Source: Octopus vulgaris
Taxonomy: Eukaryota
Length of the DNA stretch: 64,000 bases
Direction of reading: 5' to 3'
Assembly: GCA_951406725.2 (NCBI GenBank)
Contig: OX597821.1
Span: 60,698,001-60,762,000 of the forward strand
The translations under genes were made by a program, and so were the position numbers. Of this stretch, positions 1,830-49,878 are shown piece after piece. Below the pieces are notes generated by a model that worked only from the letters and a program-made list of their open reading frames with translations, made no database searches and had not been told where the DNA came from. Each line of letters starts with the position of its first letter. The first letter of the stretch is position 1.

Positions 1830-2145
1830 GCCGGGGTCGACTTTGCCTTTCATCCTTTCGGGGTCGATTAAATAAGTACCAGTTACGCACTGGGGTCTAT
1901 ATAATCGACTTAATCCCTTTGCCTGTCCTTGTTTGTCCTCTATGTGTTTAGCCCCTTGTGGGTAGTAAAGAAATAGGTATTTCGTCTGCCGCTACGTTCT
2001 GAGTTCAAATTCCGCCGAGGTTAACTTTGCCTTTCATCCTTTCGGGGTCGATTAAATAATTACCAGTTACGCACTGTCTTTCCTTGTTTGTCCCCTCTAT
2101 GTTTAGCCCCTTGTGGGCAATAAAGAAATAAGAAATAAGAAATAG
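1830..2145 (+). mobile_element. SINE family A, two tandem partial copies
   Basis: gactttgcctttcatcctttcggggtcgattaaataagtaccagttacgcactg twice, tail aataaagaaataagaaataag. Confidence 0.85.
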
Positions 2146-2949
2146 AATGATAACATTATCGCACCTCACCCTCTTAAAACTGAACAGTGTTCAATTAGAA
2201 ACTTCACGACCGGTTCAAATAATATGTTCCGCTAACACTAAGGATCTCTGTGGTCAAACGCACGTCCTCAGTAAAAATTGCATCTCAAAGACTGGTCTTC
2301 TGCAGATTCACTAATACGCCTTCCATCAACAACTACTAATCCTTCACAAAACTCACTTAAGACATGCAATAAAATATTGTTGCTTCCATTTACAAGACCA
2401 TCCTAGACAGCATCCACAAAAGATTCAAATAACTCGACTTACAGACGTGAAATAGTTCACAAACATACTCTGACTTCTGGTCTACATATGTTCTGTGTCC
2501 TTTCGCTTCTTTTTTATCTCAACTATAATTCCTCCTGCTTCTGTGAGTTGGTTAGTCTCTCGCTGCACTTCGGTCATTTCCGATTCCCTCGTCCCACTTT
2601 CTGTCTGTCACCTATGTTACGTCCGCCAAAAGCTTTGTGCTAAGCTTTTTGCCCAGCCATTCGTTCTAGGCCGACGGACCTCTGGAAAGTTTTTCTGCTT
2701 CTACCGATCTGCAGTCGTTCAAGAAAAATGCTACCGACATTAATCTAGGCCTAGCTAAAAAAATATTCTAAGACGATGGTAAATATTTCCTATATAAGCA
2801 ATATTAATTATACAGGACAAGCCGATATGGGTGTAGAACAAAGTTAGCCCTATCACAGAAGCCCAAAACTTAAAGCTGAGACGTAAGAAGTTTTAATTAG
2901 ATTCCCCAAAAAACTTACAATAAAGGTCATAAAGACGCAAAACAGAAGC

Positions 2950-3490
2950 AGGAAAACACTATTGCCGAATATGTGCAGGTTGCAAAGACACCATCTATCA
3001 CATTGTAGTGGTCGGAAAAAGAAGAATTATATAAATAGCCATATCCTACAAAAGTGCATGTTTATATACTGTTTATATAAGGTTTATACACGTAACAAAG
3101 TTATTATATTCTGGCTGATGCCGATTCTGAAATATTGAGAGATAAAAACAAATATCGCCTAACCAAATTTCAGTTCCAACCAAGAATTAATAAAGATATC
3201 GGAGTGTAAAAACCTAGAAATAATGATAACGAATAATGATAAACTGCATATGAGGGGTTGAAAAGAGAAGCTATTCACATAGTTTTAGAATAAGTGAAGC
3301 AGACAAGTACATAAGCAAAACGCTAGGATTTAAATACAAATACAATATATAGAAAATAACCCTATAAGGCATTTTGCGTATCATATATTGAATAACTGCA
3401 ATACAATAGAAAGCCACAACACTGCACTTATCCAAGGCCCAAGGAGTTATTCGTGGTTGAGCTTAGAAAGCATAGCATACAATAGCGGAT
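2950..3490 (+). mobile_element. Highly decayed R4/Dong-like LINE 3' relic
   Basis: Remnant of the CCHC knuckle (RICAGCKDTIYHIV) at 2965-3010; ends at a (GAT)n tract. Confidence 0.4.
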
Positions 3491-3493
3491 ATA

Positions 3494-3506
3494 ATGACGA
3501 CGACAG

Positions 3507-3603
<97 letters not shown>

Positions 3604-3663
3604 AATCGTACTGATAAGAACGAATGGAAGCAGAAAAAAGAAGACAGGAAGCAAAAATATTAG

Positions 3664-3717
<54 letters not shown>

Positions 3718-3743
3718 CATTATTATTATCATCGCCATCATCA

Positions 3744-3780
<37 letters not shown>

Positions 3781-3836
3781 CATTATTATTATTATTATTA
3801 TCATTATTATTATCATTATTATTATTATTATTATTA

Positions 3837-3871
<35 letters not shown>

Positions 3872-3962
3872 ATTATTATTATTATTACTATTATTATTAT
3901 CATCATCATCATCACCATTGCTATTGTTGTTGTTGTTGTTATTGTTATTATTGTAGTTGTAG
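3494..3962. repeat. (GAT)n and (TTA)n/(TCA)n trinucleotide arrays
   Basis: Direct reading; explains the poly-D/M/I/N/H ORFs. Confidence 0.95.
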
Positions 3963-4777
3963 TTAAGAAGCAGAAATTGTAGTTTGAATGTTAAATATTT
4001 CCCTCTTGTAATAAGAATTCGTGTGTGACAGCGGGTCAGGGTAAAGGTGACGTGTGTTTTACGTGATGAAATCTGTAAGATTTTTCGGAGACATTCGGTT
4101 GCCGAATACAAACATGAAAACATCCAGACGGACAAGTACTGAAAGCTAACCAGTAGTAAATTGACGTAAAAGAAAGCAGTTATAAGGGAAGATGAGATTG
4201 TGAAGTGTCTACACAAGGAAATTAACTTGATAGAAATAAATTATATGTACATATAGCAAACAGAAACCAAATATTTAAATATATAAATATAATTTATGAT
4301 TGTATGTTCTGCCTTTGTCCCTCTGTTTCTCTCTTCCCCAATATATATCTATCTGTAAATATGCGTTCAAGCATACACACACATATATTTATGGCTGTAT
4401 GCAGATATATCTACATATGTATATTATATTTGGCATATATATGCACACGTATATAAAATATGGAGTAGCTGTGTGGTAAGTAGCTTGCTTACCTTACTAC
4501 TGAAGAGTTCGCGTTGCTTGTAAGTCACGTCTTTTGACGTGAAATATTGAACGTTTGAAGCTCGACTACAGGTAGGCGTTTGTTTTATTTTTGGGGGCTT
4601 AGTGGGGTTTGCTGGTCTGTATTTAATAATTTTTGTTGAGCAACAGTCTCCACTCTGCTCCAGACATTTGCCTGCCGTTTTTGCTACGGAATTATGGAAT
4701 ATTGAAACCATTTTTTCGTTTTCTGAAAACGCAATGTCTTGGACTTACGACACTTTTGCATAATAGTGTATATATAA

Positions 4778-19964: not shown

Positions 19965-21010
19965 ATCCAGTCATTGAGAGTGAAATGTCCGATTTTGAAC
20001 TGAAAGTTTATCTCACTTTATCTTAACAAAAAACAATGTAGTTAACCAAAGTATGTACCTAAATTATCAACACTATTCTGCCATTGTATCCGCAGCTTAT
20101 TTATGCTGGCAGCAAAGAATTCTGGAGAGCAAGAGGTAATGAAATCACGAAAGGCTGTTTTTGCATCTTCTTCACACGTGAAGATTTTTCTTTGCAAAAA
20201 GTTGTCTAATGCCTGGAAAATGTGATAGTCAGTTGGTGTAAGATCTGGTGAATATGATGGGTGACAGTACTTCCAAGTTCAGTTCCTGTAACTTGAGTAG
20301 CGTTCTTTGTGCAACATGTGGTCGAGCATTGTCTTGCAAGAGAATTGGTCTGTCTCATCATTTCATCCAGCTGGTTGATATATACATCCTCTGTAATTGA
20401 CTTACCAGGTCTCATAGAGCTGTAGTGGATGACACCAGCGCTGGACCACCAAACAGACACCATTAACATTTTTTGGTGAATATTCTTTTTTGGATTGTGT
20501 TTTCGCATTTCGTCTCTATCCAACCAGCGTGCAGAACGCTTGCTATTGTTGAAAAGAATCCATTTTTCGTCACACGTCACAATACGATGCAAAAATGGTT
20601 CGCTTTTATGCCGTGACAGCAAAGAACAGCAAGTCTCAAGACCACGTGTCATTTGATGCTCGCTCGGTTCGTGTGGTACCCACTTGTCCAGCTTCTTTAC
20701 CTTGCCGATTTGTTTCAGATGGTCCAATACAGTTGAACTCGAAATATCAAATCTTGCTGCTAACTCACGTGTAGTTTGTATATCCTCTTCCGTTACAATT
20801 TCCAGCTCATCATTATCCACTTTGGTCACAGGCCTATTACGGGGATGATTTTCAAGAGTAAAGCCACCAGACCGGAACTTTTCAAACCATCGAAGTACAG
20901 TGCGCTCATTTGTTACATCACCACACTGATTTTTTCGAGCTGTCTGGGATGCATTGGTTCCACGACGGAACCAAGATATATTGATTATTTAGACTCCACT
21001 ATTATTTCTC
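19965..21010 (-). mobile_element. mariner (DD34D) transposon, decayed
   Basis: ORF 20206-20829 contains WVPHE, IVTCDEKWI and MVSVWWS; the shifted frame gives QDNARPH and YSPDLTPTDYHIF. Confidence 0.9.
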
Positions 21011-29257: not shown

Positions 29258-29295
<38 letters not shown>

Positions 29296-29299
<4 letters not shown>

Positions 29300-29671
29300 G
29301 TTGTATACTGTCAACTTAACGTGACAATCCCGCAAGGGAATTACATCACCACTATTTAGCCCTAGAAAGCATCGACGCTTCCTGTCGGCCTTGACACATT
29401 TCCTGTGTCCTTATATATTTACGAAGGGGAGACAAACACCCCCAACAGCTAGGCCTGCATCAAGAGACATGCATGTTTCTGAGTCTTGCCCATCATCAGT
29501 CTAGAGTAGCAAGGCCTGCTAGCTGAAGATATTTTTCTAGACTTCGTAATATATAAGGACACAGGAAATGTGTCAAGGCCGACAGGAAGCGTCGATGCTT
29601 CCTAGGGCTAAATAGCGGTGGTGTAATTCCCTTACGGGACTGTCACGTTAAGTTGACTGTATACAACCACT
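29296..29671. mobile_element. Fold-back cassette (130-bp arms 29296-29426 and 29542-29671) with an HHR in the loop
   Basis: Near-perfect inverted repeat between (TA)n tracts. Confidence 0.88.
29456..29510 (-). ncRNA. Hammerhead ribozyme motif
   Basis: Minus strand ctactctaga CTGATGA tggg caaga ctca GAAAC ATGCAT GTC tcttgatgc; palindromic stem III ACATGCATGT. Confidence 0.8.
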
Positions 29672-29724
29672 CTATCGCTCCACCACCGCATATATCTCTA
29701 TGAGATATTTAGAAATTTAATATT

Positions 29725-29759
<35 letters not shown>

Positions 29760-29842: not shown

Positions 29843-29913
29843 ATATTTAATTTTATTTGTTAGGGAATAAAACTTCCGGCATAACAGGGGTTCAAATTAT
29901 TCTGAATTAGGAA

Positions 29914-30084
29914 ATACATATTTTCGTTTAGAGATAGTAGGCCCCTTCATCTCACCATATAAAAGAATTAGAATTTAAATACTTGCTACTTTATAACTTG
30001 CCAAGTTATAAAGTAGTATTTAAATTTTAATTCTTTTATATGGTGAGATGAAGGGGCCTACTATCTCTAAACGAAAATATGTAT
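29914..30084. repeat. About 85-bp near-perfect palindrome (hairpin) centred on 30001
   Basis: ...ctttataacttg C caagttataaag...; arms identical except a 5-bp indel and one substitution. Confidence 0.9.
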
Positions 30085-30090
30085 GTATAT

Positions 30091-30695
30091 ATAATGATGA
30101 AACAAAAGATAGGTTACTAAAATATATTCTGTTGTAAAATTATAATGTGCACGAAATCATGTACTAAAATATATAGATGTATAAATATATAAATACACTT
30201 AAAAATATATTGATATAAATAATTAAATATGCTAAGAATATATTAAGAACATACAATATATAGTCCTACTTACAATAAAAACGGTATTGATATTATATAC
30301 ACAGAATGGGTTGAGTGCAGAGAATACTGTAAATCAATATAGGTGTTTGTAGTTCGTTAAAATCCGACAGCTGTTTCTAGGGGCACAGGGGTACAAAGAT
30401 GTAGTAATAGAATTTAAGTTCCATTAATCTAATATCACCGCCTCCTTCTTCAGGGAATTTGCCAACTGGTAAAGCTGCATTTGTCATGCAAAAAGTGCAT
30501 GGCAAACGTAGCTTTAATATATTCATAGCATATTTATATATATATATATCTATATATTTTAAATGTATTTTTGATACATTTTAAAGTGTATTTATATATT
30601 TATATATCTATATATTTCAGTACATGATTTTGTGCACATAATAATTTTACAACAGAATATGTTTTAGTAACCTGTCTTTGTTCTCTCATCATTAT
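30091..30695. mobile_element. Fold-back cassette (arms about 30091-30246 and 30514-30695) with an HHR in the spacer
   Basis: Diverged AT-rich inverted arms; minus-strand CTGAAGA (30447-30453)...GAAAC AGCT GTC (30366-30377). Confidence 0.75.
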
Positions 30696-40949: not shown

Positions 40950-42549
40950 TATGTTTGACTTTTGCTTTATATTTGTACAAGTTGGCTCCAAGTCTCACCC
41001 AGAGACCTCAAGAGACAACAGGGTTGGAAGTTCATGTTGTTGTTATGCCTAGTGTGCCATATATTTGGGGGGTGGGGATGTTGTACTAATGAATGTCTAA
41101 AAAAAAAGGTTTTTTTTTTTTTTTAAACCGAAAATTATGTTTGTTTTAAACCTTGAGATTACATAGAGAGTATTTTGCGTAGGATATGAGCAGTTCCCAT
41201 GAGCACTATCTTTTGAACTTCTGCCATTTTTGGGTTTCCTGGTATCTGAGTTAGGTAGCTATCAGCCCCTTTTGCTATCATTCCCAGGGCACCTATGACA
41301 ACAGGTATTGTTTTAGTCTTCAGCTTCCACATTTTGCTGATTTCTATTTCAAGATCTTTATATTTGCTCAGTTTTTGGTAGGTCTTGACAGATACGTTTA
41401 TATCGATTGGGACAGTCATATCAATGAGGAGGCATGTTCTTTGTTTGAAGTCTTTCAATATGATGTCTGGCCTATTTGCATCTATCTTCCTGTCAGTTTG
41501 AATGGTGAAGTTCCAGAGGAGTGAGATGTGGTCATTTTCAAGCACCGGGGGTGGTTTGTGTTCCCACCAGTTTTTTTCATGGGGCAAATCCAGGTTTTTA
41601 CAGATTACCCAGTGAATATATTGTGCAGCTCTATCGTGCCTGTTGAGATACTCTGTAGGCGCTAGAAGACTGCACTTGGAGACCACATGGTCAATGGTTT
41701 CATTTTGTTGCTTGCATACACGACACGTTGGACTGCTTCTGATCTTTAATATGTTGGCCTGGTAGTTTCTTGTTGGTAGGCATTGATCTTGAGCTGCTAT
41801 GATAAACCCCTCTGTTTCAGATTTTAAGCCAGAGGCCATTAGCCATTGATGGGTCAGGGCTTTGTCGATATCTGCATTATTCGCTCTCTTTGGGTATTTG
41901 CCATAGAGAGGTTTTTCTTGCCATTTATTATTCAGAATATCTAAGGCCGCAGTTTTGGCACGGGTTTTCATGCGCCTAGCTTTTTCTGTGCTTGTTTCTT
42001 TTATATCTATCTCTAATTCCGAAATTGGTTGTATTCGGAATTCACTTAGTTATTCCTTTGCCTGTTTTGTGACTGAGTATGATGCTTTCTTGTTTTCATG
42101 TTTTGAGACAAGTTTTAGCATCCAGTCCTCAGAGTTTTTCAGGTAGGTGTCTAGGCCAATTGTAGCAATCTTCATTGTTATTGCCAGTTGCAAAAGACCA
42201 CGGCCTCCCTCTTTTCTTGGCAGATAGAGTCGTTCTGTATCTGCCTTAGGGTGGTGCATTCTATGCATTGTCAACAGTTTCCTTATTTTTCTGTCGAGCT
42301 GACATATTTCAGTAATTGACCAGTTAGCAATATTGAAACTGTAAGTCACGACTGGTATAGCTAATGCATTGATTGCTTCGATCCTGTTTCATGCATTCAG
42401 CTCTGTCTTGAGTATTGCTCTCACTCTTCGATAGCATTCTCTCCTGATCCTTTCCTTCATCTCTGAATGCCTTATTCCGTTCCCTTCAATTACCCCTAGG
42501 TACTTGTAGCTCTCCGCTGGGTCTAGTTCTTTTATGACATTCTGTTGGT
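40949..42549 (-). mobile_element. Young R4/Dong-clade (RLE) non-LTR retrotransposon, 5'-truncated
   Basis: RT thumb (YKYLG, HPKADTERLYLPRKEGGRGL), ETEGFIIAAQDQ, CRVC..ETIDHVVSKC knuckle, RHD, RPDI..D, KLSKYKDL endonuclease; (TAA)n tail at 40851-40948. Confidence 0.93.
41159..41971 (-). CDS. R4/Dong ORF C-terminus: CCHC zinc knuckle + restriction-like endonuclease (fragment)
   Basis: 270-aa open frame with the RLE motifs; upstream in-frame stop at about 42050. Confidence 0.8.
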   Translation of the reverse strand: MKTRAKTAALDILNNKWQEKPLYGKYPKRANNADIDKALTHQWLMASGLKSETEGFIIAAQDQCLPTRNYQANILKIRSSPTCRVCKQQNETIDHVVSKCSLLAPTEYLNRHDRAAQYIHWVICKNLDLPHEKNWWEHKPPPVLENDHISLLWNFTIQTDRKIDANRPDIILKDFKQRTCLLIDMTVPIDINVSVKTYQKLSKYKDLEIEISKMWKLKTKTIPVVIGALGMIAKGADSYLTQIPGNPKMAEVQKIVLMGTAHILRKILSM

Positions 42550-48435: not shown

Positions 48436-48549
48436 TCCTTCTTGCTTTCTTTCTTTCCTTCTTTCCTTCTTCCTTTCTCACTTTCTTTGTTTCTTTGTTT
48501 CTTTTTTCTGTCTGTCTAACTATCTGTCTGTCTGTCTGTCTGTCTGTCC

Positions 48550-49878
48550 ATCTTGGGCATGCCGTGGTTGATGCTGCGCAGACACGCGCTGAGACTGCGA
48601 CATCTCAGGCTCTTCGTAGACGACGGTGAACAGGTGTGGTCGCCGTTTGTGAGGCACGCTTTCCCGCAGCTCGTCTCCATGACCGAACTGCAGTCGTGGA
48701 TCAAAAAGAGGCCGAGGAAGGGCGAATGGCACCGCGAGTGTCGCATTGCTCTCAAGCAACTCTGCCGTCCTGGGTCGACCTTGAGTGACTTCATCACAAC
48801 CAAAGCATTCTATAGGGGATTAGTGGAGGGGAGGTACGACGACGAGCTCGGGGCGAACCTGGACGTCGACGAGGAGTACCTGACCCGCCTATTCGGGACG
48901 ACTTTCGGGCCAGGGCCCATGGACAACTTCCAGAGATCCCTGGCCTGGCAGTGCTACCGAGAAGCGCTACCCGTTCGGGATAAGCTCTACAGACACGGCT
49001 CGAGAAACACGGGGCCGACTTGCCCGAGATGCGGTCAGAGCGACGAAACCGTTCTGCACGCACTCGTGCAGTGTCCAACAATTTCCGACCTGTGGGCTTA
49101 TGTCGAACAACTGCTGTCACGTGTGGGACGAGTCGGTTTATCAGCTGAGTCTATCGTCAATATTGTCACGCCTCCTTCCTTCAAACGGGAAGGAAGAGCT
49201 ATTTTCATCATCATTGTGGCTATGGCGAAAGAATGTATCTGGTGGACGCGTCTGAAAGGATTGGAGACAAACACTTTCCTCTCTGGTCAATCTCTCATCA
49301 ACTTCTTCAAGTACCACTTGAAAAGGAAAGTGAGAGTAGAGAGGCAAGTTTTGTCTAGCGAATGTTTAAAAAAAAGATGGGTGAATGTAGCAAGGATGGC
49401 ACGTATGAATGACGAAGCCACCTTGAGCATAATCCTATGAACCCAGAAATTGAAAACAGAGGGTTACCCACTTGCAAACAAATGTGGTAACATATAACAA
49501 TATTGACAAAGGTTACCGTGGTCTTTTTCGTAGGCTTTTCTTCCCACGGATAAACCTTACTTGCTTTCCCCTTTACACCATATATCATAACACTGTGATA
49601 CACGATCCTTATTGATCGTTTTTTTTCCTCTTCCCCTTTTTTCCCCTTTTTTTCTTCTTTTTTTATTTCTCTTTTCTTTTGTTCCTTTTCCGTTTTTAAT
49701 TTTTTTAATTTTTATTTTTTTAATTTTTAATTTAATTTTTTTTGTTCTTTTCTTCCCTTTTACGCCACCCCCTTTTTTTTGTTTCTTTTGTTTTTTGTTT
49801 TTTTCATCCCCCAAAAGAAAAGCTCTACCTTGTAACTTGTCCCACCTGTGTGCAGCCCTGTGTGTTCAATAAAGAAAC
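48550..49878 (+). mobile_element. Tx1/L1-clade LINE, 5'-truncated, young
   Basis: GC-rich open ORF2 end, T-rich 3' UTR, AATAAA at 49868-49873; (TCTG)n on the left, (ATCT)n on the right. Confidence 0.85.
48553..49440 (+). CDS. Tx1/L1 ORF2 C-terminal fragment (zf-RVT CCHC)
   Basis: LGMP start; CPRCGQSDETVLHALVQC; AKECIWWTR; 295 aa with no stops. Confidence 0.8.
   Translation: MGMPWLMLRRHALRLRHLRLFVDDGEQVWSPFVRHAFPQLVSMTELQSWIKKRPRKGEWHRECRIALKQLCRPGSTLSDFITTKAFYRGLVEGRYDDELGANLDVDEEYLTRLFGTTFGPGPMDNFQRSLAWQCYREALPVRDKLYRHGSRNTGPTCPRCGQSDETVLHALVQCPTISDLWAYVEQLLSRVGRVGLSAESIVNIVTPPSFKREGRAIFIIIVAMAKECIWWTRLKGLETNTFLSGQSLINFFKYHLKRKVRVERQVLSSECLKKRWVNVARMARMNDEATLSIIL

What the first reader, a model, noticed from the sequence alone, without database searches (positions are those of the whole stretch)
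29296..29671. 130-bp inverted arms enclosing a well-preserved hammerhead in the loop
Seen: MITE-like long inverted arms between (TA)n tracts. The 115-bp loop holds a complete minus-strand HHR with an intact core, a GUC site and a 10-nt palindromic stem III. Inference: this would be annotated as a MITE, but the ribozyme argues for an RNA-intermediate element.
Basis: partly seen in the sequence, partly recalled or inferred. Interest (0 to 1): 0.7.

Follow-up and report, generated by a model that had tools for sequence, protein, structure and literature searches.

The report
Two-armed hammerhead retrozyme, not a MITE
This hairpin is one copy of a 360-base non-coding repeat that carries a hammerhead ribozyme motif (predicted to self-cut) and often lands as two head-to-head arms, one ending at a short site and one 55 bases further, a footprint shared with this genome's protein-coding Penelope retrotransposons, whose enzyme likely pastes it from an uncut or circular RNA.

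Summary
Observation holds, but the element runs 55 bp further (29292-29730), and it is not a MITE. It is one insertion of a 360-nt type I hammerhead repeat (non-LTR retrozyme) with thousands of candidate copies. A sense piece (minus strand) and an inverted piece meet at the RNA's own stem. Family ends fall at two sites 55 nt apart. In a structure-blind sample, 45 of 94 insertions are inverted, and 37 of 38 scorable ones have one short and one long end. Junctions vary, arms form no side-specific lineage, and flanks often carry 9-16-nt duplications. Four of four inverted pairs of coding Penelope-like elements here follow the same short/long rule. Arms do not stop at the cut site. Best reading: Penelope-type priming on both target strands from an uncut or circular RNA. 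Against: no Rfam hit, no excess core conservation in unselected copies, two stem defects in this copy, no partner found by sequence, cleavage untested. The scan noted this pattern before, apparently in other families of this genome. New member of a known kind.

The parts
29292..29730 (.). Whole insertion: two head-to-head pieces of a 360-nt hammerhead repeat unit
   Evidence: BLAST of a natural unit (L023:1451-1820) against the locus
29292..29555 (-). Sense piece, unit positions 51-315. It reads across the ribozyme and ends at the short (S) end next to (TA)n
   Evidence: 94.7% identity to L023
29542..29730 (+). Inverted piece, unit positions 181-370, ending at the long (L) end
   Evidence: 97.9% identity to L023
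29676..29730 (+).
   Evidence: family ends cluster at unit positions about 315 and about 370
29542..29555 (.). Inversion junction: 14-nt overlap provided by the RNA's own long-range stem (unit 51-65 pairs with 181-195)
29456..29511 (-). Type I hammerhead: 6-bp helix I (one U-U mismatch here) followed by a 3x1 internal loop, 4-position helix II with a 5-nt loop, short helix III with a palindromic loop
   Evidence: no Rfam hit
29493..29499 (-). Core CUGAUGA
29466..29479 (-). GAAA, 10-nt palindromic helix III and GUC; predicted cut after 29466
29259..29296 (.). Left (TA)n target tract (its last bases overlap the S end by microhomology)
29730..29755 (.). Right (TA)n target tract; a target duplication cannot be resolved inside TA

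Best explanation
The hairpin is a single insertion of a non-coding 360-nt hammerhead repeat (non-LTR retrozyme), likely written into a (TA)n tract by a borrowed Penelope-like (PLE) reverse transcriptase-endonuclease that primed on both cut DNA strands. Shown: unit structure, two end sites 55 nt apart, one-short-one-long ends in inverted copies, variable junctions, 9-16-nt flank duplications in many copies, read-through of the cut site, and the same footprint in coding PLEs of this genome. Inferred steps: (1) a tandem copy is transcribed, and the hammerhead likely cuts it to unit RNA that is likely circularised; (2) a PLE protein, likely a dimer, makes a staggered cut of about 12-13 nt in AT-rich DNA; (3) one strand primes at the short site and the other at the long site of likely the same RNA; (4) both cDNAs run toward the RNA 5' side and are joined where their ends are complementary, here the stem that encloses the ribozyme, so the hammerhead ends up in the 'loop'. 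This copy itself is likely a dead end: it has one ribozyme and weakened stems.
For: Family: 3415 and 3661 first-look candidates; 47 of 206 held insertions cross a head-to-tail unit junction. Ends: 147 of 160 outer ends lie at S or L among 108 insertions with an exact mid-unit 38-mer. Asymmetry: 37 LS, 1 LL, 0 SS of 38 scorable among 45 inverted in the structure-blind sample; 67 of 72 in all held; direct-only copies use both ends (56 S, 45 L of 111). Flank duplication >=9 nt in 34 of 49 inverted insertions with non-microsatellite flanks, against 39 of 2207 shuffled pairings; mode 12-13 nt. Arms of one insertion are closer to each other (0.063) than to other loci (0.090/0.091) and share subfamily letters (41 of 49 against about 24 expected at two sites). 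Arm stops match within 25 nt in 19 of 36 (permutation mean 8.4). No excess of stops at the cut site: 8 of 57 against 0.14-0.20 in neighbouring bins. Positive control: two coding RT + GIY-YIG PLE families end at two sites in (TA)n, and 4 of 4 inverted pairs are one short, one long. Compensatory helix I changes between subfamilies. Literature: two internal RT start sites, both strands cut and extended, predicted dimer (PMC11167929); inverted 5'-truncated copy, one-sided tail, (TA)n targets (PMC8557442).
Against: No autonomous partner shares sequence with the unit among 50 GIY-YIG loci, 30 loci of a second coding family and 12 longer regions. The tails of the two coding families are about 27-35 nt, not 55. 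No Rfam hit. The base of helix II is U-A, U-U or C-A rather than G-C. The core is not better conserved in unselected copies; 19 of 39 are intact. Direct-only copies show duplications less often (15 of 62). Matched arm stops were not seen in the two other samples (3 of 12, 1 of 15), and hairpin-guided joining alone would also produce them. Shared letters between arms could come from later gene conversion. Cleavage, circles and transcription are untested.
Confidence: 0.8

Rival explanations
1. A MITE or foldback DNA transposon whose internal spacer happens to hold a hammerhead.
For: 128-nt arms at 95%, TA-rich target, about 20 top hits of similar overall shape; duplications of 9-11 nt also occur with Mutator-type elements (recalled).
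Against: The top hits were selected by the query. In the structure-blind sample 49 of 94 insertions are not inverted, junctions scatter over the unit, and ends are asymmetric. Among 13 stem-junction copies, same-side and opposite-side arm distances are equal (0.095 and 0.095), so the hairpin did not spread as a unit.
Confidence: 0.02
2. One cDNA folds back on its own stem and copies itself (self-priming hairpin), with no second priming on RNA.
For: Junctions sit on local hairpins and palindromes; arms of one insertion share letters and often stop near the same place.
Against: Here the piece that reaches furthest 5' (to 51) starts at S, yet the other arm carries 55 nt beyond S, which a fold-back could not copy. 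The S arm reaches further in 20 of 36 scored cases. Fold-back does not explain the fixed second end.
Confidence: 0.07
3. The copies are truncated pseudo-LTR ends of a still-unfound coding PLE, not a free-standing retrozyme.
For: PLE footprint; retrozymes are homologous to pLTRs in frogs (10.64898/2026.07.22.740005); only about 200 of thousands of loci were examined.
Against: Where copies run past the unit start they continue into another unit (47 of 206, including two-unit arrays L150, L164, L165, L283). No PLE-like ORF adjoins the unit in the 12 longer regions checked.
Confidence: 0.11

Closest known systems
Metazoan non-LTR retrozymes (Cervera and de la Pena 2020, PMC7229834, passages read; Li, Clavereau and Pollet 2026, 10.64898/2026.07.22.740005, parts 1-3 of 5 read)
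   Same: Non-coding unit of 360 nt (mussel units are about 350-390), type I hammerhead, dispersed monomers and short tandems, TSDs longer than 4 bp, co-occurs with PLEs.
   Different: About half of the sampled copies are head-to-head with PLE-type short/long ends, which the parts I read do not describe. No long arrays among the loci held. Circles and cleavage are not shown here, and no pLTR homologue was found.
EN+ Penelope-like elements (Craig et al. 2021, PMC8557442, passages; PAc/Poseidon, Frangieh et al. 2024, PMC11167929, parts 1-2 of 4)
   Same: 5' truncation, partial tandems, inverted 5'-truncated copy, one-sided tail between two RT start sites, AT-rich or (TA)n targets, hammerhead in the repeat.
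   Different: No ORF. The tail is 55 nt rather than 30-40. The ribozyme has canonical-size helices (6-bp I, 4-position II), not the minimal PLE type (PMC4209133, passages).
MITEs / foldback elements
   Same: Short, non-coding, long inverted arms, high copy number.
   Different: The arms are not terminal repeats, the ends are asymmetric, the junction varies, and many copies have no inversion.
L1 twin priming (recalled, not from a call)
   Same: Both target strands prime cDNA, and the two cDNAs are joined by microhomology.
   Different: L1 twin priming inverts without duplicating. Here both arms copy the same region from two fixed internal start sites.

Membership tests
Type I hammerhead ribozyme | Core CUGANGA, GAAA, NUH | tested here: met
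Type I hammerhead ribozyme | Helices I (6 bp), II (4 bp), short III with palindromic loop; open helix I | tested here: met
   (one U-U in helix I in this copy); compensatory changes between subfamilies, few independent events
Type I hammerhead ribozyme | G10.1-C11.1 closing pair of helix II | tested here: not met
   U-A here; U-A 43, U-U 41, C-A 36 of 122 pieces. A U-U at this place is described for axolotl HHR_Amex2 (PMC7229834)
Type I hammerhead ribozyme | Match to Rfam hammerhead models | tested here: not met
Type I hammerhead ribozyme | Self-cleavage | not testable with these tools
   needs in vitro transcription
Non-LTR retrozyme | Non-coding 150-450-nt unit with one type I HHR, in tandem and dispersed copies | tested here: met
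   360-nt unit; 47 of 206 insertions cross a head-to-tail junction
Non-LTR retrozyme | TSD longer than 4 bp when present | tested here: met
   49 of 111 with >=9 nt against 39 of 2207 controls; not resolvable for this copy
Non-LTR retrozyme | Expressed as linear and circular RNA | tested here: inconclusive
   no run on record as RNA; contigs only. Read-through of the cut site is indirect
PLE-type insertion | Two 3' end sites (tail), inverted 5'-truncated copy, AT-rich target | tested here: met
   control in coding PLEs
Autonomous PLE | RT + GIY-YIG ORF | tested here: not met
   no ORF of 150 aa or more at the element; none beside the unit in the longer regions
MITE | Fixed symmetric terminal inverted repeats and uniform size | tested here: not met
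MITE | Spreads as a whole DNA unit (side-specific arm lineages) | tested here: not met

The most novel reading that the evidence does not exclude
A PLE dimer holds one circular retrozyme RNA and primes both strands of a 12-13-nt staggered cut at once, one subunit at each of two fixed start sites. This gives the near-obligate one-short-one-long ends. It would explain the long-unexplained PLE inverted and tail structures, and show that circular ribozyme RNAs are direct templates for genomic integration.
Probability: 0.4. Interest if true: 0.7.

Novelty: new member of a known kind. Interest (0 to 1): 0.48.

Why it matters
The enzyme that moves animal retrozymes has been proposed to be a PLE from co-occurrence and pLTR homology, and the origin of PLE inverted and tail structures is still called undefined in the papers read. 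A short non-coding family with thousands of candidate copies gives countable footprints (37 of 38 asymmetric ends, read-through of the cut site) and a 360-nt template that can be put straight into the existing in vitro PLE assay. Practically, such copies would likely be mis-filed as MITEs by repeat pipelines.

Tried and rejected
Rfam: nothing relevant. Partner search: PF01541 loci (30 loci plus 20 longer regions), a second coding family and relaxed hammerhead patterns (12 regions) gave no element that joins the unit to an ORF; a same-strand pair 4 kb apart (L171) was two separate insertions. One search's comparison with PLE loci was swamped by TA hits and was redone. Expression: no RNA holder listed. 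Four runs guessed as RNA hold contigs of the family with more depth 3' of the cut site, but they are contigs and 5' truncation gives the same slope, so this was not used as evidence. Idea that direct-only copies hide tiny inverted arms: only 4 of 92, two of them one duplicated insertion (L028/L029); rejected as a general rule. Idea that linear cleaved monomers are the template: no pile-up of stops at the cut. A look-up by sequence in earlier findings gave nothing. Paper searches for Penelope + twin priming + inverted, octopus + hammerhead ribozyme and Penelope-like + tail + both strands + dimer + target-primed since 2024 listed no paper on this footprint in retrozymes. These were listings only; the library lacks most subscription papers, and supplements were not seen.

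Full report
OBSERVATION. On the minus strand the loop holds CUGAUGA (29499-29493), a four-position helix II, GAAA, the 10-nt palindrome and GUC (cut predicted after 29466), closed by a 6-bp helix I and a 3x1 internal loop. This is the canonical metazoan type I layout described in PMC4209133 (passages read). Rfam does not recognise it. This copy has a U-U in helix I and a G-U in helix II that the family majority lacks. Its hammerhead fold is 6.0 kcal/mol above the MFE, against a median of 3.9 in 100 relatives.

WHAT THE FAMILY IS. The window lies in a 2.8-Gb genome rich in microsatellites. DNA searches gave 3415 and 3661 first-look candidates, of which 40 were scored each time. Many hits matched only one arm plus the ribozyme and then ran on into a spacer and another unit. 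A natural unit was taken from L023 (360 nt; numbered 1-370 with a 10-nt overlap). Mapped on it, the window holds a sense piece 51-315 (29555-29292, minus strand) and an inverted piece 181-370 (29542-29730), overlapping by 14 nt at the stem that encloses the ribozyme.

MITE TEST. After removing duplicates, 206 insertions were held. To avoid selecting on shape I sampled with a mid-unit stretch (94 insertions not already held under earlier ids). Of these 45 are inverted and 49 are not. Junctions scatter over the unit. Among 49 inverted insertions with both arms covering 200-300, same-side and opposite-side distances between loci are equal (0.090 and 0.091; 0.095 and 0.095 in the 13 that share this copy's junction zone), while the arms within one locus are closer (0.063) and share subfamily letters. 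So the hairpin was made afresh many times and did not spread as a unit.

FOOTPRINT. Outer 3' ends fall at two sites, S (scored 303-321) and L (360-370): 147 of 160 ends among 108 insertions carrying the exact 38-mer (some of these came from shape-biased searches). Direct-only copies use both (56 S, 45 L, 10 other of 111). Inverted copies almost always have one of each: 37 LS, 1 LL, 0 SS, with 7 unscorable, of 45 in the blind sample; 67 of 72 scorable in all held. With non-microsatellite flanks, a shared stretch of 9 nt or more flanks 34 of 49 inverted and 15 of 62 direct insertions, against 39 of 2207 shuffled pairings, with a mode of 12-13 nt. A simple repeat lies on at least one side in 94 of 206. 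Arms do not stop preferentially at the ribozyme cut (8 of 57 that reach it; neighbouring bins 0.14-0.20), and 49 cross it, as this copy does. The template was therefore uncut or re-ligated. The two arms stop within 25 nt of each other in 19 of 36 cases (permutation mean 8.4), but not in the two other samples (3 of 12, 1 of 15), and joining at local hairpins would give this too.

CONTROL. The genome holds two young coding families with RT and GIY-YIG domains. By their CxxC linker they look Neptune-like (clade name from PMC8557442; no tree built). Both end at two sites in (TA)n (16 of 30 long in family 2), and all 4 inverted pairs checked are one short, one long. Neither shares sequence with the unit, and their tails are about 27-35 nt, so the actual partner is not identified.

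RIBOZYME UNDER SELECTION? Between subfamilies, three helix I pairs change on both sides (A-U to G-C in 10 and 20 of 122 pieces, U-A to C-G in 16). These are few independent events, and part of that set was selected on the ribozyme. In 39 pieces not selected on it, the core is no better kept than the rest (7.0% against 4.8% mismatches; 19 of 39 intact), as expected for copies that decay after insertion. The base of helix II varies (U-A, U-U, C-A), a departure from the canonical G-C.

MECHANISM. Frangieh et al. (PMC11167929, parts 1-2 of 4 read) showed that a PLE protein cuts and extends both strands of AT-rich DNA, starts at two internal RNA sites whose spacing is the genomic tail, is predicted to be a dimer, and uses uncleaved RNA. 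Craig et al. (PMC8557442, passages) describe the inverted 5'-truncated copy, the tail often at one end only, and (TA)n targets. The footprint here fits priming on both strands, one at S and one at L, with the two cDNAs joined by complementarity. A simple fold-back cannot make this copy, because the arm that reaches furthest starts at S while the other carries sequence beyond S. The footprint is shown. The enzyme, dimer, single template, cleavage and circle are inferred.

COMPARISON AND NOVELTY. The element works like, and meets the testable criteria of, a metazoan non-LTR retrozyme (PMC7229834, passages; 10.64898/2026.07.22.740005, parts 1-3 of 5). Both papers propose PLEs as the mobiliser, and the second found cleavage in only 1 of 9 tested dimers, so activity cannot be assumed. 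My three targeted searches listed no paper on the short/long rule in retrozymes. Earlier notes of this scan report the same pattern for what appear to be other families in this genome (units of 355-495 nt, one with ends 44 nt apart); the look-up by this sequence found none. My note set the retrozyme/PLE reading before that look-up, and the tests here are on this family only. Verdict: new member of a known kind, with a useful mechanistic footprint; interest 0.48.

Noticed in passing
window about 29845-30092: A second, unrelated two-armed insertion lies 120 bp away: 70-nt arms at 99% with a one-sided extension of about 60 nt. It belongs to another repeat family (784 candidates) whose longer copies carry, on the opposite strand, a hammerhead-like motif with a long insertion in helix II. 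This copy stops just short of that motif.
   Followed up: partly
window 30105-30679: AT-rich inverted arms of 106 nt, 92% complementary, 363 nt apart; not examined.
   Followed up: no
L121-L136, L139 (for example L124:768-2207 and 2126-4471): Young two-ORF PLE family (781-aa RT + GIY-YIG frame, upstream 479-aa frame, about 1-kb 3' repeat with internal tandem motifs). Near its 3' end sits a possible minimal hammerhead with U3-A8 in place of C3-G8, seen by eye.
   Followed up: partly
L313-L346: Second PLE family with 76 near-identical protein matches, so very recently active. It has two end sites about 27 nt apart, and its inverted pairs obey the short/long rule.
   Followed up: partly
L142, L179-L182: Hammerhead cores with the same palindromic helix III but no BLAST match to this unit: further ribozyme families.
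   Followed up: no
window 20206-20988 (-), 41159-42049 (-), 48520-49440 (+): Fragments that look like a mariner transposase and non-LTR retrotransposon ORFs, judged by eye.
   Followed up: no
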